Shown here one piece after another: positions 38,159 to 53,818 of a stretch of 64,000 nucleotides of DNA. Source of the stretch: an uncultured Candidatus Saccharibacteria bacterium (GTDB lineage: Bacteria > Patescibacteriota > Doudnabacteria > UBA920); the NCBI GenBank assembly GCA_964505635.1, contig CAZDIP010000002.1, positions 165,843 through 229,842 of the forward strand, given 5' to 3'. The position numbers and the translations under genes were made by a program. Numbering within the stretch: the stretch's first letter is position 1; every line of letters starts with the position of its first letter. Under the pieces are notes generated by a model. It had not been told where the DNA came from, did no database searches, and saw nothing but the letters and a program-made list of their open reading frames with translations.

Positions 38159-38235
38159 GGGCGTGTAGCTCAGCTGGTTAGAGCACGAAGCTTATACCTT
38201 CGGGGTCCTAGGTTCAAATCCTAGCACGCCCACCA
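38159..38235 (+). tRNA. tRNA-Ile (anticodon UAU)
   Basis: cloverleaf: acceptor gggcgtg/cacgccc, anticodon loop cuUAUac, T-loop ttcaaat, encoded CCA. Confidence 0.8.
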
Positions 38236-49488: not shown

Positions 49489-49715
49489 TTTGTGGAGCGC
49501 CTAACCCCGCATAACTAGAAAACTCGTATGCGGGGCGTGGCGGGAAGTTTCCAATTCCCTTTGACAAATGAAAAAACTTTCACAAAATTGTGAAAGTTTT
49601 TTCATTGGAGCGGGTAATCCACCTACGCTAAAGCTTCGGCGGACAGGCGGGAAAAGTTCTCATTCCCACTGACAAAAAGAAAATGCCCGACCGTTGAGGT
49701 CAGGCATATTCTTTT
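49489..49715. repeat. two ~110-bp tandem repeat units, each beginning with a copy of the tRNA-Gly 3' end (TGGAGCG[GG/CC]TAA) and ending in a terminator-like hairpin
   Basis: unit1 49492-49600, unit2 49606-49715; shared GGCGGGAA(A)AGTT.C.ATTCCC..TGACAAA core; unit3 is the intact tRNA-Gly. Confidence 0.5.
49679..49715 (-). terminator. terminator hairpin downstream of tRNA-Gly
   Basis: atgcctgacc-tcaac-ggtcgggcat stem (with a G-U) followed by uuuuc on the minus strand. Confidence 0.45.
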
Positions 49716-49788
49716 GGAGCGGGTAACGGGAATCGAACCCGTGTCATTTGATTGGCAACCAAATGTACTACCATTGTACTATACCCGC
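49715..49788 (-). tRNA. tRNA-Gly (anticodon GCC)
   Basis: acceptor gcgggta/tacccgc, anticodon loop uuGCCaa, T-loop ttcgatt, CCA. Confidence 0.85.
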
Positions 49789-49789
49789 C

Positions 49790-50080
49790 TGGTGCCTCGG
49801 GTCAGAATCGAACTGACTACGCCAGCCTCTTCCAAGGCTTTTTTGGACTATATCATCATCCCGAAATTTTCGGGAGCTGGGCGCTTAGTACGGGATTATT
49901 GTTGGGACTCACCCGTTAGTCTCTACGCCTTTTCCGGCACCTTTGCCCGCCGGAACTTGGTTCGGGATTGTTATCTTTTAAGATAGTTTTTCCCGAGTTC
50001 ACCCAGTTTTTCTCAATCCACCTTGCGGCGGATGGCCCCAAAGATTTTAGGGCTGCGCTCTACCAATGAGCTACCGAGGC
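49790..50080 (-). tRNA. tRNA-Phe (anticodon GAA) interrupted by a group I intron in the anticodon loop
   Basis: 5' exon GCCTCGGTAGCTCATTGGTAGAGCGCAGCCCT (ends at U33); 3' exon GAAGAGGCTGGCGTAGTCAGTTCGATTCTGACCCGAGGCACCA; the spliced product closely matches canonical tRNA-Phe. Confidence 0.65.
49833..50048 (-). ncRNA. group I self-splicing intron (~216 nt)
   Basis: P1 between exon GCCCU and internal guide GGGGC (U.G at the splice site); P-like GCGGGCAAAGG, R-like GUAGAGACUAAC and S-like AUGAUAUAGUCC elements (P7 GACUA/UAGUC); terminal G before the 3' exon. Confidence 0.55.
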
Positions 50081-50105: not shown

Positions 50106-50182
<77 letters not shown>

Positions 50183-50212
50183 AAGTTTGCTTAGGGCTGC
50201 TTGCCTAATATA

Positions 50213-50551
50213 TCAAAAAAAGACTTTTTTGGCAATAGCTTTTGACAGTTCGGTTAATGCGTCAATGTTGTCTGCTTTTGAAGTTTTGCATTTAAAAATT
50301 TTGCCGCATTTTTGGCATTCATGCGTTAAAATATATTCGCCTTTTTCCATTTCTAAATTAATTGGCTTCATAAGCCCCCCGCATTTTTCCGCCCTGTCGC
50401 CGGGGTTTATGTCCACATGCAGGCTAAAAAGGCATTTAGGGCAATGGTTGGTGTAGCCGTTGCCTTTGACTTTAAACCCGCAGTTTTTGCAAATAAAATT
50501 TTCAGTTTTTTTGGTGAATTTTTTAAGCATGCTTTTATGGTATAGTAACAA
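50213..50551 (-). CDS. RNHCP-domain zinc-ribbon protein
   Basis: CKNCGF...GYTNHCPKC...CQKCG Cys pairs with the TNHCP motif. Confidence 0.5.
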   Translation of the reverse strand: MLLYHKSMLKKFTKKTENFICKNCGFKVKGNGYTNHCPKCLFSLHVDINPGDRAEKCGGLMKPINLEMEKGEYILTHECQKCGKIFKCKTSKADNIDALTELSKAIAKKVFF

Positions 50552-50669
50552 ATTCTTGAATAATAAAAAAGTGAGCTAGTATTTTAAAGTGTAAGACATA
50601 AGGCTTGAAAGAAAGTATAAAAAAGTCTATAATGCCCTAGTTATAGACAGAAAAAATCCTTAAATATTT

Positions 50670-50753
50670 GCCCAGGTGGTGGAATGGCATACACGTACGC
50701 TTGAGGTGCGTATTCCTTTTGGATTGAGGGTTCGAGTCCCTCCCTGGGCACCA
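50670..50753 (+). tRNA. tRNA-Leu (anticodon GAG)
   Basis: anticodon loop uuGAGgu, long variable arm, CCA; acceptor and T arms identical to tRNA-Leu(UAA) at 47144. Confidence 0.85.
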
Positions 50754-50754
50754 T

Positions 50755-50784
50755 AAAAATCCCAAAAATGCTTTTGGGATTTTT
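50755..50784 (+). terminator. rho-independent terminator
   Basis: aaaaatcccaaaa-atgc-ttttgggattttt. Confidence 0.55.
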
Positions 50785-50796
50785 ATGTGGCATGAG

Positions 50797-50831
50797 AAAA
50801 GCCGCGCGATCCTCCATGTCGCGCGGCTCTT
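50797..50831 (-). terminator. GC-rich hairpin terminator for the GC-rich hypothetical gene
   Basis: aagccgcgcga-tcctccatg-tcgcgcggctctt. Confidence 0.5.
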
Positions 50832-50846
50832 GGTTGTATAAGTAGG

Positions 50847-52319
50847 TTACCACCCGGACCGTTCTTTCCTGACAGCAATTACCATTTTGCGCAGTGGGTC
50901 GTTATCTTTTGGCATTCCTGCCCAGGTGGAAGTCGCTCCACCCATGAGGCGGCTCATGAGACAACCGTTGTTGCAACGAATTTTGGGATTCGTTTGAGCC
51001 GCCAGGCGACTCATTCCTCCCAGCAAGTAGTCTTCTACCTGCTGGATGCTTTCTATCCGAACAAGGTCGCTTACAGTATAGCGGTTCCAGTAGCAGGCTA
51101 GTTTGAGGCCAGGGAAGACGCCTGCTTCCCACGGCGTGACGGTTGCGGCTCCGGCGCCTTCAATCTTAACCTGTCCCCAGGTTTCGCCGGTGATGCCCAT
51201 CTGCGTATAGAAGCCGGCACCAATGTCTTCGTAGCAGCGCCAGAGTCCGTGGCCAGACATGGCCAAACACAGGCGATCTGGGTCTTTGTTATACAGTCGG
51301 ATTGCGGCTTCCAGGAGATCCCAGAAATGGTGCCGTGACGGGATAAACCGTTGATTGGCCGGTTTATCATGTTCGTCTAGGGCCCAAGTGACGATTTTGT
51401 GGATGTGAGGCAGGTCGTCCGGCGAAAACAATGCTTCGCCATTGGACGGGCTGCTCTGCGCCGGGTACGGGTTGAAAATCATGGACGGAAACTCAGCATG
51501 AGCCGCTGCCGCCATTTCCAACAAGTGTGGGACGTTGGTATGCTTGAACACCACGTTCCAGAGAATGCGCGAATTCGGAAATCCTTCTCGCAAGATACGC
51601 CGGGTGGCAGCGACGCCTGCAAGCAGTTTCTTTCGCGGCCCCTGGAATTTGTTGAGTTTGTTGTGCGCGGCGACCAGTTCTTCTTCTGTCATGGACAGAA
51701 CCTGAGCCAGATCGTCAGGGCTGGTGATGTGGTCAAAGCTGAAGGCAAATACTTTTGGAGGGTGTCGCTTCAACATGGCAACGAACCTGCCGGTTGTGTC
51801 GGATGCGATGCGCCAACCTACTGCTGTCAAGTTGGCACTTACATCATTTTCCTCGCACCACCGAAACCCTGGTTCGAGGTTGTTGAAGAGCTCGGTGTTG
51901 CCACCGAAAAAGTTCAACCCCTTTTTGCCGGAAACCACCCCTGCCTTGAATGCTTCCGATTGTGCTGTCGGCGCCTCCATACGCTCCATCAGTTCGTTGA
52001 ATTTTGTGCTGTTGACCCAAAAATTCCACGCTCTGATTTGGGCTTGGAAAATCATGTCAACGCGCTGGATGATCTCTCCAATAGGCGCGTAGCTTGCCGT
52101 CCGGATACCGGGATTTCTGACAGAAGCCCCGTCGCAGTCGTAGTCGTTTTGGGTTGGATTGCCTTGGTCGTCTGTAAGGACACAGTTGTAGTTACAGACC
52201 TCTCCTTCGCCGAAGCTTCCGTTGCCATGATCCGCCCACGCAGACACGAAGTTGATCTGTGCGGCTGCAGTTTCGGGATGAATGTAACCCTGTTCACGAA
52301 GTTTGTCTATAGCGCTCAT
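50847..52319 (-). CDS. hypothetical 490-aa protein, GC-rich (Cys motifs CNYNC and CNNGC; function unknown)
   Basis: long ORF with much higher GC than the genome background; no confident family assignment from sequence alone. Confidence 0.45.
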   Translation of the reverse strand: MSAIDKLREQGYIHPETAAAQINFVSAWADHGNGSFGEGEVCNYNCVLTDDQGNPTQNDYDCDGASVRNPGIRTASYAPIGEIIQRVDMIFQAQIRAWNFWVNSTKFNELMERMEAPTAQSEAFKAGVVSGKKGLNFFGGNTELFNNLEPGFRWCEENDVSANLTAVGWRIASDTTGRFVAMLKRHPPKVFAFSFDHITSPDDLAQVLSMTEEELVAAHNKLNKFQGPRKKLLAGVAATRRILREGFPNSRILWNVVFKHTNVPHLLEMAAAAHAEFPSMIFNPYPAQSSPSNGEALFSPDDLPHIHKIVTWALDEHDKPANQRFIPSRHHFWDLLEAAIRLYNKDPDRLCLAMSGHGLWRCYEDIGAGFYTQMGITGETWGQVKIEGAGAATVTPWEAGVFPGLKLACYWNRYTVSDLVRIESIQQVEDYLLGGMSRLAAQTNPKIRCNNGCLMSRLMGGATSTWAGMPKDNDPLRKMVIAVRKERSGW

Positions 52320-52468
52320 TGCTTTCTCCTACTTTCCTTTGAGATATACCCTCTTTGGTATTGGCCTTATTTTATTTCAAATCTTTAAATAGTTCAACCC
52401 TCCTTGACCCGGGAGTTGATACTGGATAAAATAATCAGGATCTAGAAGTACAATTACAGGGAGGTTTT

Positions 52469-53152
52469 ATGGCGAAAGCCGGTATCGTGGTGGTAAGTAA
52501 TACGCTTACGAATCACGCGCTCACTATCATGCGGGACAAGCGTACTAAGATGCGTGAGTTTCGTGAGGGGGCAATTTATTTGTCCCGAATCCTTGCTTAT
52601 GAGGTTGGTAAAACCTTTGAAGCCTCGAGCAAGACCATTGAAACCCCGCTCGGTCGTTTTGAGGGCCAAAGGCTCGTCTCGAGGGCTTCGATCGTTCCGG
52701 TCCATCGCGCGGGCGGCATCATGACTCAGCCGTTCATTGACATGTTGCCGACAGCAGACCAGGTGCTGGATGTTGGCGTTTATCGCGACGAACTCGATGG
52801 TTGCAGGCCAAAAGAGTATCTGAACAAAATCCCTGCTCGTATCAGCGGTCGTCGGGTTTATGTGGTGGTGGATCCAATGCTTGCGACCGCGGGATCCGCG
52901 ATTCACACTATTAGCCTTTTAAATAAGGCCGGTGCTCAAAGTGTTGTCTACGCGGGCATTGTGTCTGCACCCGAAGGAGTGAAAGCTCTTTTACAGGCGC
53001 ATCCAAACACCAAGGTTTTTACAGTCTCAGTGGATGAGTGCCTCAACGCCTCCAACTATATTGTAAAGGGGTTGGGCGACTTCGGTGACCGGATGAATGG
53101 TACGAGAGTATATGTTCGTAGAGTCAAACGTCTTGATGGTATGGCGGCTTAG
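52469..53152 (+). CDS. upp: uracil phosphoribosyltransferase
   Basis: VYVVVDPMLATAGS PRPP-binding motif and IVKGLGDFGDRMNGT C-terminal signature; RBS agggagg; GC-rich. Confidence 0.85.
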   Translation: MAKAGIVVVSNTLTNHALTIMRDKRTKMREFREGAIYLSRILAYEVGKTFEASSKTIETPLGRFEGQRLVSRASIVPVHRAGGIMTQPFIDMLPTADQVLDVGVYRDELDGCRPKEYLNKIPARISGRRVYVVVDPMLATAGSAIHTISLLNKAGAQSVVYAGIVSAPEGVKALLQAHPNTKVFTVSVDECLNASNYIVKGLGDFGDRMNGTRVYVRRVKRLDGMAA

Positions 53153-53242
53153 GCTATACAGATTTCTCGCTGGCGTGTGTGGGGCACGCTGGCGAGACTC
53201 GTTTTTTTATATTAAAATTAGAGTGCAATTAAGTTTATTTTT

Positions 53243-53818
53243 ATGTTTATCCCCGTAGTGTTAGGTTCAGTCAGAGACCAGCGCCGCAGCCTTGCTCCGG
53301 CGAAGTTATTGGTGGAAAAAATCAAAGCGGCCGGGCATGAGTCAGAACTTGTAGACTTTAAAGAAATGCCTTTGCCGTTTTTTGACCTTCCTACTGTGCC
53401 GGTGGCTTTAAAAGGAGTTTATCCAAACGAAAATGCGCAAAAATGGAGCAATGTCGCCCGCAGGGCTGATGCTTTGGTGTTAATAGTAAGCGAATACAAC
53501 CACGGCTATTCTGCGGTATTAAAGAACGCCCTTGACTGGCTGTATATGGAATTTAATAGAAAGCCCTTTGGCATGGTAGGCGTGTCGGACGGCAAATATG
53601 GCGGTATGCGCGCCATGGAAGCCTTGCGGCAGGTAATAGAAAATTTTGGCGCTGTAGCTATGCGCGAGGTGGTGGCATTTGGCCCGGTTCAGGATGCTTT
53701 TGATGCGGAAGGAAAATTGGTTGATGAAAGTTATTTAAAAAAGATTGACGGCCTTTTAAAAGTTTTAGTTGAATTTGCCCAAGCATTAAAGCCCATAAGG
53801 CCGGACTTAAAAGTTTAA
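53243..53818 (+). CDS. NAD(P)H-dependent FMN reductase family oxidoreductase
   Basis: flavodoxin-like pattern SEYNHGYSAVLKNALDW. Confidence 0.7.
   Translation: MFIPVVLGSVRDQRRSLAPAKLLVEKIKAAGHESELVDFKEMPLPFFDLPTVPVALKGVYPNENAQKWSNVARRADALVLIVSEYNHGYSAVLKNALDWLYMEFNRKPFGMVGVSDGKYGGMRAMEALRQVIENFGAVAMREVVAFGPVQDAFDAEGKLVDESYLKKIDGLLKVLVEFAQALKPIRPDLKV

What the first reader, a model, noticed from the sequence alone, without database searches (positions are those of the whole stretch)
49790..50080. tRNA-Phe(GAA) interrupted by a ~216-nt group I intron after U33, packed in a Val-Phe-Gly tRNA cluster
Seen: the exons reconstruct a canonical tRNA-Phe (GCCUCGG-UA-GCUC...GAGC-G-CAGCC-CU | GAAGA-GGCUG-GCGUA-GUCAG-UUCGAUU-CUGAC-CCGAGGC-A-CCA). 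The intervening 216 nt contains an internal guide sequence GGGGC that pairs with the exon end GCCCU (U.G at the splice site), a P-like GCGGGCAAAGG element, an R-like GUAGAGACUAAC element and an S-like AUGAUAUAGUCC element that form P7 (GACUA/UAGUC), and a terminal G. Only one nucleotide separates the CCA of tRNA-Phe (49790) from the 5' end of tRNA-Gly (49788). Established: bacterial tRNA group I introns are best known in tRNA-Leu(UAA), fMet, Ile and Arg. An intron in tRNA-Phe would be unusual, and it sits in what is presumably the only tRNA-Phe gene here.
Basis: partly seen in the sequence, partly recalled or inferred. Interest (0 to 1): 0.65.

Follow-up and report, generated by a model that had tools for sequence, protein, structure and literature searches.

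The report
Group I intron in tRNA-Phe gene
The only phenylalanine tRNA gene in this stretch of an ultra-small (Patescibacteria-type) bacterial genome is split by a 216-base self-splicing RNA intron. The intron is real and well supported, but this kind was already catalogued in these bacteria in 2026, so it is a new example and not a new phenomenon.

Summary
On the minus strand, 50080-49790 encodes a tRNA-Phe(GAA) split after U33 by a 216-nt insert (50048-49833). The insert scores 61.3 bits against Rfam Intron_gpI (cut-off 50). ARAGORN in intron mode calls the same boundaries, and the joined exons fold as a cloverleaf.

A scan of species-representative genomes found at least 102 further split tRNA-Phe genes with an intron at the same site. 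Seventy-seven come from records that carry Patescibacteria lineage names. Across 66 aligned relatives, 92.6% of proposed pairs form (76.6% after shuffling) and 46 of 79 pairs show compensatory changes. The guide sequence follows the exon sequence in both P1 and P10.

The intron has a covarying extra hairpin between P7 and P3' (P7.1, a subgroup-IA trait), no P9 and no endonuclease gene. It therefore differs from the classical IC3 tRNA introns.

The claim that it is unusual is out of date. Nakagawa et al. 2026 list a tRNA-Phe(GAA) 33/34 intron in a Doudnabacteria genome. That intron is 74% identical to this one and scores the same against my family profile.

One possibly new detail is that the intron's 3' tail copies the 5' strand of the anticodon stem.

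Verdict: new member of a known kind, low to moderate interest.

The parts
50207..50235 (-). Promoter-like site (TTGCCA, 17-nt spacer, TG, TATATT) just upstream of tRNA-Val; the likely start of the Val-Phe-Gly transcript
   Evidence: Consensus scan, 10 of 12 matches with an extended -10 TG. This is a pattern match only, and its role is inferred.
50106..50182 (-). tRNA-Val(UAC), with CCA encoded
   Evidence: ARAGORN; Rfam tRNA 75.9 bits
50049..50080 (-). tRNA-Phe exon 1 (positions 1-33, ending in C32 U33)
   Evidence: ARAGORN -i; sequence; acceptor and D stems 100% paired in 66 relatives
49833..50048 (-). Group I intron, 216 nt, with no ORF longer than 50 codons
   Evidence: Rfam RF00028 61.3 bits against a cut-off of 50; 157 bits against a profile built from 102 other tRNA-Phe introns; ORF check
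50035..50044 (-). Internal guide sequence UCUUU|GGGGC. GGGGC pairs with exon G29-U33 (P1, with U33.G). UCUUU pairs with exon G34-A38 (P10).
   Evidence: Read from the sequence. In 103 sequences the 10-nt guide pairs with the joined exon junction at 9.47 of 10 positions, against 8.31 +/- 0.09 after shuffling junctions. P1 has 3 of 5 pairs with compensatory changes, and P10 position 37 covaries (C-G in 34 sequences, U-A in 29).
50016..50033 (-). P2 hairpin AUCCGCC-GCAA-GGUGGAU
   Evidence: 7 of 7 pairs have compensatory changes; 95.4% paired; recovered in the minimum-energy fold
50000..50006 (-). P3 5' strand CUGGGUG (pairs with 49883-49877 CGCCCAG)
   Evidence: 100% paired; the 2 outer pairs covary and the 5 inner pairs are invariant
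49962..49996 (-). P4 (UCGGG/CCCGA) enclosing P5 (UAUCU/AGAUA) and the A-rich J4/5
   Evidence: Rfam alignment places the P/Q elements here. P4 is 99.7% paired. P5 has 5 of 5 covarying pairs but only 72% of cells paired in the MAFFT columns.
49928..49960 (-). P6 (CC/GG) and P6a (UUCCGGC/GCCGGAA).
   Evidence: P6a has 7 of 7 pairs with compensatory changes and is 98.1% paired
49917..49923 (-). P7 5' strand G-A(bulge)-GACUA within the R element GUAGAGACUA. It pairs with UAGUCC at 49850-49845 and forms the presumed guanosine-binding helix.
   Evidence: GUAGAGACUA is invariant in all 66 aligned relatives although it was not part of the search pattern. P7 is 100% paired. The equivalence to the Tetrahymena G-binding pair rests on my own knowledge.
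49890..49916 (-). P7.1 extra hairpin ACGGG-(UGAGUCCCAACAAUAAU)-CCCGU between P7 and P3', with a conserved 17-nt loop
   Evidence: 4 of 5 pairs have compensatory changes and 98.8% are paired. The loop is nearly invariant. In 37 relatives two hairpins (P7.1 + P7.2) take its place.
49877..49883 (-). P3 3' strand CGCCCAG
49859..49875 (-). P8 hairpin UCCCGA-AAAUU-UCGGGA
   Evidence: 4 of 6 pairs covary; 67% paired in MAFFT columns because the stem length varies; recovered in the minimum-energy fold
49845..49858 (-). J8/7 (UGAUGAUA) and the P7 3' strand (UAGUCC), together the S element
   Evidence: Rfam alignment. Its invariance among relatives is partly forced, because GATATAGTC was in my search pattern.
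49833..49844 (-). 3' tail AAAAAAGCCUUG. There is no P9. AGCC (49839-49836) can pair with exon G39-U42 (49827-49824). The terminal G (omega G) is at 49833.
   Evidence: Sequence. The tail-exon hairpin appears in the minimum-energy fold and in the Rfam alignment. Across 46 distinct P9-less relatives the helix is 71.7% paired against 61.0 +/- 2.2 after shuffling (0 of 500 shuffles reach it) and at most 48% when slid.
49790..49832 (-). tRNA-Phe exon 2 (G34 A35 A36 G37 A38 ... A73 CCA)
   Evidence: T stem 99.1% paired with 4 of 5 pairs covarying
49715..49788 (-). tRNA-Gly(GCC), one base (G 49789) after the CCA of tRNA-Phe
   Evidence: ARAGORN; Rfam 73.6 bits
49673..49707 (-). Intrinsic terminator-like hairpin (10 bp) followed by UUUUCUUUUU, closing the tRNA operon

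Best explanation
This is a functional, HEG-less, self-splicing group I intron of the subgroup-IA type. It sits between U33 and G34 of what is probably the organism's single tRNA-Phe(GAA) gene, in a Patescibacteria (Doudnabacteria-like) genome.

Inferred mechanism:
1. Val, Phe and Gly are transcribed together, from the promoter-like site at 50235 to the terminator at 49707.
2. The intron folds into the P3-P8 core. Its guide sequence GGGGC takes exon bases G29-U33 into P1, which opens three pairs of the anticodon stem.
3. A free guanosine bound at P7 attacks the bond after U33.
4. The terminal G (49833) replaces the free guanosine, and UCUUU holds G34-A38 in P10.
5. The 3'-OH of U33 joins the exons, giving the anticodon loop CUGAAGA.
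6. Ordinary tRNA end-processing then separates the three tRNAs.

Shown here: the anatomy, the covariance-model match, family-wide covariation, and the way the guide sequence follows the exons. Inferred: catalysis itself, co-transcription, and essentiality.
For: - Rfam RF00028 gives a full-length match at 61.3 bits against a cut-off of 50. All 8 representative relatives tested also pass, at 50.9-79 bits.
- ARAGORN -i gives the same boundaries, and the joined exons fold as a cloverleaf.
- 102 other genomes carry a split tRNA-Phe with an intron of 195-310 nt at the same site.
- On 66 aligned precursors, 92.6% of cells pair against 76.6% after shuffling and at most 50% when slid. 46 of 79 pairs have compensatory changes. 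P2, P6a and P7.1 covary throughout, and P3, P4, P6 and P7 are invariant or fully paired.
- The guide sequence follows 12 different exon junctions in both P1 and P10.
- GUAGAGACUA is invariant although it was not selected for.
- The fold has z = -4.78 and recovers most helices unaided.
- The intron holds no ORF longer than 50 codons.
- It belongs to the same family as the published tRNA-Phe 33/34 intron: 157 against 155 bits on a profile that excludes the window.
- Related Asn and Asp introns from Patescibacteria self-splice precisely in vitro (PMC13011429 abstract).
- No other tRNA-Phe lies in the window, and complete Patescibacteria genomes mostly have one.
Against: - There is no experimental or RNA-seq evidence for this intron, or for any tRNA-Phe intron. 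The published assays covered Asn and Asp only.
- The intron lacks P9 and any obvious P9.0, which usually help dock the terminal G.
- The Rfam score is only 11 bits above the cut-off.
- P5 and P8 reach only 72% and 67% pairing in the MAFFT columns. This is probably misalignment of stems that differ in length, but I did not resolve it.
- The relatives were selected with a pattern containing the S element and the Phe exon, so conservation of those parts is partly circular.
- The rest of the genome is not available, so a second, intron-less tRNA-Phe cannot be excluded.
Confidence: 0.9

Rival explanations
1. The intron is catalytically dead or crippled. This copy would then be a tRNA-Phe pseudogene, and the cell would use another, intron-less tRNA-Phe gene outside the window.
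For: There is no P9. No splicing data exist for any tRNA-Phe intron. The whole genome cannot be inspected. A few complete Patescibacteria genomes do have two tRNA-Phe genes (4 of the 60 listed).
Against: - The core elements are invariant, and the stems carry compensatory changes across more than 60 species. That pattern indicates purifying selection on the fold.
- The guide sequence keeps up with exon changes.
- The exons keep perfect tRNA helices: acceptor and D stems are 100% paired and the T stem 99%.
- The published homologue sits in a complete genome in which all three tRNA finders count one tRNA-Phe.
Confidence: 0.04
2. The intron is a true group I ribozyme but cannot splice alone in the cell. 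Because it lacks P9, it would need a protein helper (an RNA chaperone or a co-opted tRNA-binding protein) or unusual ionic conditions to dock the 3' splice site.
For: P9 and P9.0 are missing in the window and in 58 of 103 relatives. From my own knowledge, many group I introns depend on proteins in vivo. The intron tail appears to rebuild a tRNA-like anticodon arm, which a tRNA-binding protein could recognise.
Against: P10 is a contiguous 5 bp next to P1 and covaries, which is the usual way to position the 3' exon without protein. No candidate maturase is encoded in or next to the intron. Related small Patescibacteria tRNA introns splice without protein in vitro.
Confidence: 0.12
3. The insert is not an intron. 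It would be two tRNA half-pseudogenes with unrelated spacer between them, or an archaeal-type intron removed by a splicing endonuclease.
For: None beyond the fact that default tRNA finders miss the gene.
Against: Rfam gives a full-length group I match. The P3/P7 pseudoknot and the P4-P6 domain are conserved. A U.G pair and a terminal G are present at the boundaries in every relative. The 33/34 site, with P1/P10 pairing to the guide sequence, is not a bulge-helix-bulge motif.
Confidence: 0.01

Closest known systems
tRNA-Phe(GAA) 33/34 group I intron of Doudnabacteria genome GCA_016699995.1 (Nakagawa et al. 2026, mSystems, PMC13011429, Table 1 and supplementary Table 3)
   Same: - Same host gene and insertion site, with U(-1) and a terminal G, and no HEG.
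- Same architecture: one P7.1 hairpin with the loop UGAGCCCAACAAUAAU, no P9, and a 3' tail (GACGC) that copies the anticodon-stem strand.
- 74% identity over the full length.
- Near-equal scores on my family profile: 155 bits against 157 for the window.
- The window's flanks are syntenic with Doudnabacteria contigs.
   Different: It is a different species. The exons differ (anticodon stem GACGC/GCGUC against CAGCC/GGCUG, with the guide sequence changed to match). The length is 211 nt against 216 nt. Neither intron has been tested for splicing.
[quoted passage not shown]
   Same: The core sequence is very similar (AAAAAUCGGGUGAAUUC..., GCAGAGACUA, then a hairpin with a CCAAUAAG-type loop before AGCGCCC). 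A Nitrospirota Asn intron aligns over its full length to my tRNA-Phe intron profile at 79 bits. They are small and mostly lack HEGs.
   Different: The host tRNA and insertion site differ (35/36, inside the anticodon), so the guide sequence differs. The Asn and Asp introns shown have a P9 hairpin and the window's intron has none. Some Asn introns carry HEGs.
Classical bacterial tRNA introns of subgroup IC3: cyanobacterial tRNA-Leu(UAA) 34/35, tRNA-fMet 33/34, Azoarcus tRNA-Ile 36/37, Agrobacterium tRNA-Arg 36/37
   Same: [quoted passage not shown] The fMet type uses the same 33/34 site.
   Different: IC3 introns run from P7 straight into P3' and have a P9 (sequences). The window's intron has a covarying P7.1 hairpin and no P9. 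IC3 examples match my family profile only partially (fMet 51.5 bits, Leu 42.9 bits). From my own knowledge (Zaug et al. 1993), the Anabaena intron needs the exon-exon anticodon stem. Here P1 invades that stem.
tRNA-Phe(GAA) 31/32 intron of Elusimicrobiota GCA_023213235.1, classed IA3 (PMC13011429, supplementary Table 5)
   Same: The host tRNA isotype is the same.
   Different: The insertion site differs (before C32) and the intron is unrelated at sequence level, at 7 bits on my profile. tRNA-Phe has therefore been invaded at least twice independently.

Membership tests
Group I intron (Rfam RF00028) | Covariance-model score at or above the curated gathering score | tested here: met
   61.3 bits against 50, model positions 1-253 of 253, E 4e-13
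Group I intron (Rfam RF00028) | P1 formed by an internal guide sequence with the 5' exon end, with a U.G wobble at the splice site | tested here: met
   GCCCU/GGGGC. The U.G pair is present in 66 of 66 aligned relatives, and 3 of 5 P1 pairs covary.
Group I intron (Rfam RF00028) | Terminal guanosine (omega G), and P10 between the guide sequence and the 3' exon | tested here: met
   G at 49833. P10 is UCUUU/GAAGA and is 96.4% paired. Position 37 covaries: C-G in 34 sequences and U-A in 29.
Group I intron (Rfam RF00028) | Conserved core: the P4-P6 domain and the P3-P8-P7 domain, with the P3/P7 pseudoknot | tested here: met
   All helices can be placed. P3, P6 and P7 are 100% paired and P4 is 99.7% paired. 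P3 has 2 covarying pairs, and P6a has 7 of 7. The counts only make sense when P7 is written as a pseudoknot.
Group I intron (Rfam RF00028) | Guanosine-dependent self-splicing | not testable with these tools
   This needs an in vitro transcript or RNA-seq. It has been shown only for related Asn and Asp introns.
Patescibacteria tRNA-Phe(GAA) 33/34 intron family | Insertion between U33 and G34 of a tRNA whose joined exons read as tRNA-Phe(GAA) | tested here: met
   ARAGORN -i. The junction and loop length leave no alternative boundary with U(-1) and a terminal G. The exon is 71% identical to E. coli pheV, which discriminates only weakly from other tRNAs. U20, U59, U60 and A73 match E. coli Phe identity elements, from my own knowledge.
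Patescibacteria tRNA-Phe(GAA) 33/34 intron family | Sequence homology of the intron to other members, including the published one | tested here: met
   On a profile of 102 other members the window scores 157.1 bits and the published GCA_016699995.1 intron 155.0 bits. The best pairwise identity is 82%, to L002.
Subgroup IA (as opposed to IC3) | Extra helix or helices (P7.1, P7.2) between the P7 5' strand and the P3 3' strand | tested here: met
   The window has one 5-bp hairpin there with 4 of 5 covarying pairs. Thirty-seven relatives have two hairpins at that place. IA1-labelled Asn introns show the same layout.
Subgroup IA (as opposed to IC3) | Assignment by subgroup-specific covariance models | not testable with these tools
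   Subgroup models are not in the library. The paper states that nearly all Patescibacteria tRNA introns are IA and none IC, but the row for the Phe intron is cut from the stored table.
Subgroup IC3 (classical bacterial tRNA introns) | P7 followed directly by P3', with P9 present | tested here: not met
   P7.1 is inserted. Only 12 nt follow P7 3', so there is no P9.
Mobile (homing) group I intron | An intron-encoded homing endonuclease | tested here: not met
   The longest open frame in the 216 nt is 50 codons, on the antisense strand.

The most novel reading that the evidence does not exclude
In the P9-less branch of this family, which includes the window, the last roughly 8-12 nt of the intron carry a copy of the 5' strand of the anticodon stem. 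In the window this is AGCC at 49839-49836.

The copy can pair with exon positions 39-43 while the true 5' strand is held in P1. That would rebuild an anticodon-arm look-alike with the terminal G in its loop. The strand swap could stand in for P9/P9.0 by placing the 3' splice site, and it could stop the anticodon stem from competing with P1.

This would be the opposite of the Anabaena tRNA-Leu intron, which needs the exon-exon anticodon stem. I found no description of such a tail helix in the papers I read.
Probability: 0.4. Interest if true: 0.4.

Novelty: new member of a known kind. Interest (0 to 1): 0.25.

Why it matters
- **Annotation.** Default tRNA finders miss the gene, so a genome like this would be reported as lacking tRNA-Phe. 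That matters when small Patescibacteria genomes are judged for completeness or for 'missing' essential genes.
- **Biology.** Every phenylalanine codon in this organism probably depends on an RNA-catalysed splicing step. That makes the intron a possible control point, as Nakagawa et al. suggest.
- **Distribution.** The published survey of complete genomes listed one such Phe 33/34 intron among 95 complete Patescibacteria genomes (its table of all bacterial genomes is only partly held here). My scan shows the family in at least 102 species-level genomes, so it is far commoner than that count suggests.
- **Model RNA.** The family is small (down to 195 nt), and some members do without P9. It could serve as a compact IA-type model ribozyme.

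None of this changes how group I introns are understood.

Tried and rejected
1. **BLAST of the joined tRNA against all E. coli genomes.** No hit at E < 0.01, because the database is too large for a 75-nt query. I fetched pheV by accession instead. The 71% identity is only slightly above the identity to tRNA-Ala and tRNA-Val, so sequence identity alone does not settle the isotype.
2. **Metagenome scan for an intron-less allele of the window's tRNA-Phe lineage.** No matches. The pattern was very specific, so this says little.
3. **Second metagenome scan for the intron signature, to see which genes the family occupies.** My pattern was off by one base: it demanded a 6-nt P7.1 strand, so it excluded the tRNA-Phe introns. 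It returned 13 non-tRNA loci. Whether this exact family occurs outside tRNA-Phe therefore remains untested.
4. **BLAST of the intron against the phage collection.** Nothing at E < 1e-3. A short consensus query hit only the generic R element of a cyanophage psbA intron.
5. **First pair count with P7 in the same bracket type as P3.** This mis-nested the pseudoknot. I redid it correctly.
6. **A full-length covariance model of my own.** I used MAFFT plus explicit pair counting instead.
7. **Source of the window.** An exact-protein look-up found only a 1.8-kb Logan contig from SRR16481187. I found no sign that the window comes from the published genome GCA_016699995.1: the only record of this protein is that contig, and the two introns are 74% identical.
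8. **Alternative reading of P7.** ACUAAG occurs a second time after the hairpin. I rejected it as the P7 strand because GUAGAGACUA is invariant and the hairpin stem covaries as a unit.
Full report
**1. What is in the sequence**

On the minus strand the region reads as follows:
- tRNA-Val(UAC) at 50182-50106, then 25 nt of spacer.
- A 32-nt tRNA 5' half at 50080-50049, ending ...CAGCC-CU.
- 216 nt at 50048-49833.
- A 43-nt tRNA 3' half at 49832-49790, GAAGA-GGCUG...A-CCA.
- One G at 49789.
- tRNA-Gly(GCC) at 49788-49715.

ARAGORN in default mode lists seven tRNAs in the window and no tRNA-Phe. With intron search switched on it reports tRNA-Phe c[49790,50080], anticodon gaa, intron (33,216). The joined 75-nt sequence folds as a clean cloverleaf at -31.4 kcal/mol.

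A promoter-like site (TTGCCA, 17-nt spacer, TG, TATATT; 50235-50207) precedes tRNA-Val. A 10-bp terminator hairpin with a U-tract (49707-49673) follows tRNA-Gly. The three tRNAs therefore look like one transcription unit. That is an inference from consensus matches only.

**2. It is a group I intron**

Rfam's Intron_gpI model matches 50058-49823 end to end at 61.3 bits (gathering score 50, E 4e-13). Nothing else in the window reaches even E 0.01 apart from the seven uninterrupted tRNAs.

My parse, checked base by base:

| Element | Sequence or pairing | Note |
|---|---|---|
| P1 | exon GCCCU with GGGGC | U33.G at the splice site |
| P10 | UCUUU, immediately 5' of GGGGC, with exon G34-A38 (GAAGA) | one 10-nt guide, UCUUUGGGGC, is complementary to the joined junction |
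| P2 | AUCCGCC-GCAA-GGUGGAU | |
| P3 | CUGGGUG/CGCCCAG | |
| P4 | UCGGG/CCCGA | |
| P5 | UAUCU/AGAUA | |
| P6, P6a | CC/GG, UUCCGGC/GCCGGAA | |
| P7 | G-A(bulge)-GACUA with UAGUCC | |
| Extra hairpin (P7.1) | ACGGG-[UGAGUCCCAACAAUAAU]-CCCGU | lies between P7 and P3' |
| P8 | UCCCGA/UCGGGA | |
| J8/7 | UGAUGAUA | |
| 3' tail | AAAAAAGCCUUG | 12 nt, ends in the terminal G; there is no P9 |

An unconstrained minimum-energy fold of the 291-nt precursor independently recovers the three undisturbed tRNA stems plus P1, P2, P4, P5, P6a, P7.1 and P8. Its energy is -110.3 kcal/mol, with z = -4.78 against 200 shuffles. The intron has no open frame longer than 50 codons, so it encodes no homing endonuclease.

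Its 'P-like GCGGGCAAAGG' is really the P6a stem and loop. The Rfam alignment puts the P element at AACUCGGGAAAA.

**3. Relatives**

I scanned one genome per species (GTDB) for the S element followed within 4-34 nt by G|GAARA-N14-GTTCRA.

A script then searched upstream of each hit for a 5' half that pairs with the acceptor and anticodon strands of the 3' half. It found a complete split tRNA-Phe in 102 loci (plus the window, 103 sequences in all), with inserts of 195-310 nt, always after a YU at positions 32-33.

Going by record titles:
- 77 of the 102 carry Patescibacteria/CPR lineage names (Paceibacterota, Saccharibacteria, Doudna-, Yanofsky-, Harrison-, Magasanik-, Falkow-, Gracilibacteria and others).
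- 16 are unnamed.
- 9 are labelled otherwise: eight 'uncultured Gammaproteobacteria' from one automated binning project and one Nitrospirota. I suspect these labels are wrong.

All eight representative loci I passed to Rfam exceed the gathering score, at 50.9-79 bits.

The window's flanks are syntenic at about 60-69% protein identity with Doudnabacteria contigs (L073, L062, L088) and with L023 and L026. In L088 and L077 a tRNA directly flanks the split tRNA-Phe on each side, as tRNA-Val and tRNA-Gly do in the window; I did not determine their isotypes.

**4. Comparative support for the structure**

On a MAFFT alignment of the 66 precursors that share the window's architecture, I counted pairs for the structure above, writing P7, P10 and the tail helix as pseudoknots.
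- 92.6% of 5134 cells form standard pairs, against 76.6 +/- 0.4% after shuffling and at most 50% when partners are slid by 1-3 columns.
- 46 of 79 pairs have changes on both sides.
- The covariation score is 0.454 against 0.157, with 0 of 500 shuffles as high.

By helix:
- P2: 7 of 7 pairs have compensatory changes.
- P6a: 7 of 7.
- P7.1: 4 of 5.
- P1: 3 of 5.
- P3: the 2 outer pairs covary and the 5 inner pairs never vary.
- P4, P6 and P7: essentially invariant and fully paired.
- P5 and P8: they covary but reach only 72% and 67% pairing. I attribute this to MAFFT misaligning stems of different length.

The guide sequence follows the exons. Across 12 different junction sequences the best 10-nt stretch near the intron's 5' end pairs with the joined junction at 9.47 of 10 positions, against 8.31 +/- 0.09 when junctions are shuffled among introns. 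Examples: GGACU|GAAAA goes with UUUUCGGUCC, GGAUU|GAAAA with AUUUCGAUCC, and GCCCU|GAAGA with UCUUUGGGGC.

One caveat applies. The S element and the start of exon 2 were in my search pattern, so their invariance is not evidence. GUAGAGACUA, P3, P4 and the P7.1 loop were not in the pattern and are nevertheless invariant or nearly so.

**5. Subgroup**

Between P7 and P3' the family has either:
- one hairpin with a nearly invariant 17-nt loop (66 sequences, including the window), or
- two hairpins (37 sequences), the P7.1 + P7.2 arrangement typical of subgroup IA.

Forty-five members have a P9 hairpin. Fifty-eight, including the window, have none.

The classical bacterial tRNA introns (IC3) go from P7 straight into P3' and keep P9, as the cyanobacterial Leu and the fMet sequences printed show.

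I built a profile from the 102 other tRNA-Phe introns:

| Intron | Score on the profile |
|---|---|
| Window | 157 bits |
| IA1-labelled Nitrospirota tRNA-Asn intron | 79 bits, full length |
| fMet IC3 | 51.5 bits, partial |
| Leu IC3 | 42.9 bits, partial |

I cannot run subgroup models here. The structural call agrees with Nakagawa et al., who state that nearly all Patescibacteria tRNA introns are IA and none IC.

**6. It is already known as a kind**

Nakagawa, Amikura, Omae and Suzuki (mSystems 2026, PMC13011429) surveyed 95 complete Patescibacteria genomes. Their Table 1 lists 'GCA_016699995.1 Phe (GAA) 33/34', found by Infernal, ARAGORN and tFind. Their Table S2 places that genome in Doudnabacteria with a single tRNA-Phe.

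Their supplementary table prints the sequence. It is 211 nt long and has the same P7.1 hairpin, no P9, and a 3' tail GACGCAG that copies its own anticodon-stem strand GACGC. It is 74% identical to the window's intron and scores 155 bits on my profile.

Their table of all complete bacterial genomes also lists an unrelated tRNA-Phe intron at 31/32 in an Elusimicrobiota genome, classed IA3. It scores 7 bits on my profile.

Williams (bioRxiv 2020, 10.1101/2020.01.27.920355) had already expanded the four classical tRNA-intron types to 21. His table is an image, so I could not confirm that Phe is among them.

Splicing has been shown in vitro only for the Asn and Asp introns.

**7. How it most likely works**

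The mechanism is the standard two-step group I pathway, as set out in the best explanation.

What is particular here is that P1 takes G29-U33 and so opens three pairs of the anticodon stem. The exon-exon stem therefore cannot hold the splice sites together, as it does in the Anabaena tRNA-Leu intron (my own knowledge: Zaug et al. 1993). In its place there is a contiguous P1-P10 guide.

In most P9-less members there is also a tail segment that repeats the 5' strand of the anticodon stem:

| Anticodon-stem 5' strand in the exon | Matching tail segment |
|---|---|
| CAGCC | CAGCU, UAGCC or AAGCC |
| CAUCC | UAUCC |
| CUGCC | UUGCC |
| GACGC | GACGC |
| UUCGC | UUCGC |
| CAUGC | AAUGC or UAUGC |

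In a fixed register this tail-exon helix is 71.7% paired in 46 distinct sequences, against 61.0 +/- 2.2% after shuffling (0 of 500 shuffles reach it) and at most 48% when slid. The real anticodon stem is 98.7% paired. My register-free test gave 4.43 of 5 against 4.10 +/- 0.06.

The signal is real but modest:
- About a dozen members lack the tail copy (for example L016, L018, L060, L095 and L116).
- In the window's nearest relatives (L023, L077, L088) the tail stayed UAGCC while the exon stem changed.
- In the window itself the helix is only 4 bp.

I therefore offer it as the most novel reading not excluded by the evidence (probability about 0.4), not as a finding.

**8. Verdict**

The novelty claim is not. 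This is a new member of a recently described kind, and specialists would not be surprised by it.

What this analysis adds is modest:
- The family's real breadth: at least 102 species, against one in the published survey of 95 complete Patescibacteria genomes.
- A covariation-backed secondary structure.
- The two alternative P7.1 and P7.1+P7.2 architectures.
- P9-less minimal forms down to 195 nt.
- The possible tail helix.

Noticed in passing
window 38159-38235 (+): A tRNA-Ile with anticodon UAU (ARAGORN; Rfam tRNA 72 bits). From my own knowledge, most bacteria read AUA with a lysidine-modified CAU tRNA, so a genomic UAU anticodon is uncommon.
   Followed up: no
window 50213-53818, especially 51000-53000: About 3.4 kb lies between the tRNA cluster and the DHH/DHHA1 gene. 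It holds an RNHCP zinc-ribbon protein, tRNA-Leu(GAG), a 490-aa ORF with no Pfam match, a uracil phosphoribosyltransferase and an FMN reductase. In the syntenic Doudnabacteria contig L073 the DHH/DHHA1 homologue ends only about 270 bp from the tRNA that precedes the split tRNA-Phe, so the block appears to be absent there. GC is 53-56% at 51.0-53.0 kb against 40% for the window. It is possibly an island acquired next to a tRNA gene.
   Followed up: partly
L120-L132 (metagenome contigs), e.g. L124 ~9100, L125 ~3640, L129 ~9535: A mis-registered search pattern pulled out group I introns (RF00028 76.7 bits in L121 and 65.8 in L128). They share the window's P7.1 loop motif GUGAGUCCCAACAAUAA but lie outside tRNA genes. 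In the longer contigs (e.g. L124, L125, L128, L129) they lie next to ORFs with LAGLIDADG-like motifs (e.g. ...AGFFDGEG...), in regions that look to me like phage structural-gene regions. I did not characterise the flanking genes. This hints at kinship between the tRNA-Phe intron lineage and mobile introns.
   Followed up: partly
L111 1164-1430; also L025, L030, L079: Family members have introns as short as 195 nt (L111) and 202 nt, and still pass the Rfam threshold (L111 50.9 bits, L025 53.6 bits). From my own knowledge, that is shorter than the 205-nt Azoarcus intron often cited as among the smallest self-splicing group I introns.
   Followed up: partly
window 49828-49832 and relatives: The intron-bearing tRNA-Phe genes fall into two exon classes: G37 (loop CUGAAGA, as in the window) and A37 (CUGAAAA). 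The guide sequence is changed to match (UCUUY against UUUUC). From my own knowledge, G37 in a bacterial tRNA-Phe is unusual, since A37 is the norm.
   Followed up: partly
L010, L012, L048, L057, L069, L099, L107, L115; L113: Eight MAGs titled 'uncultured Gammaproteobacteria' (all from one automated binning project) and one titled Nitrospirota carry tRNA-Phe introns and exons that cannot be told apart from the Patescibacteria ones. The taxon labels are probably wrong, or the contigs mis-binned.
   Followed up: no
window 49714-49986 (+): A 90-codon ORF runs antisense across tRNA-Gly, tRNA-Phe exon 2 and half of the intron. It is almost certainly spurious, but a gene caller could annotate it and so mask the RNA genes.
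   Followed up: no
window 49789-49792: The encoded CCA of tRNA-Phe is followed by a single G before tRNA-Gly position +1. RNase P cleavage of tRNA-Gly would therefore leave tRNA-Phe-CCA with one extra base, and exactly one nucleotide would need to be trimmed from the 3' end. Many relatives do not encode CCA at all.
   Followed up: no
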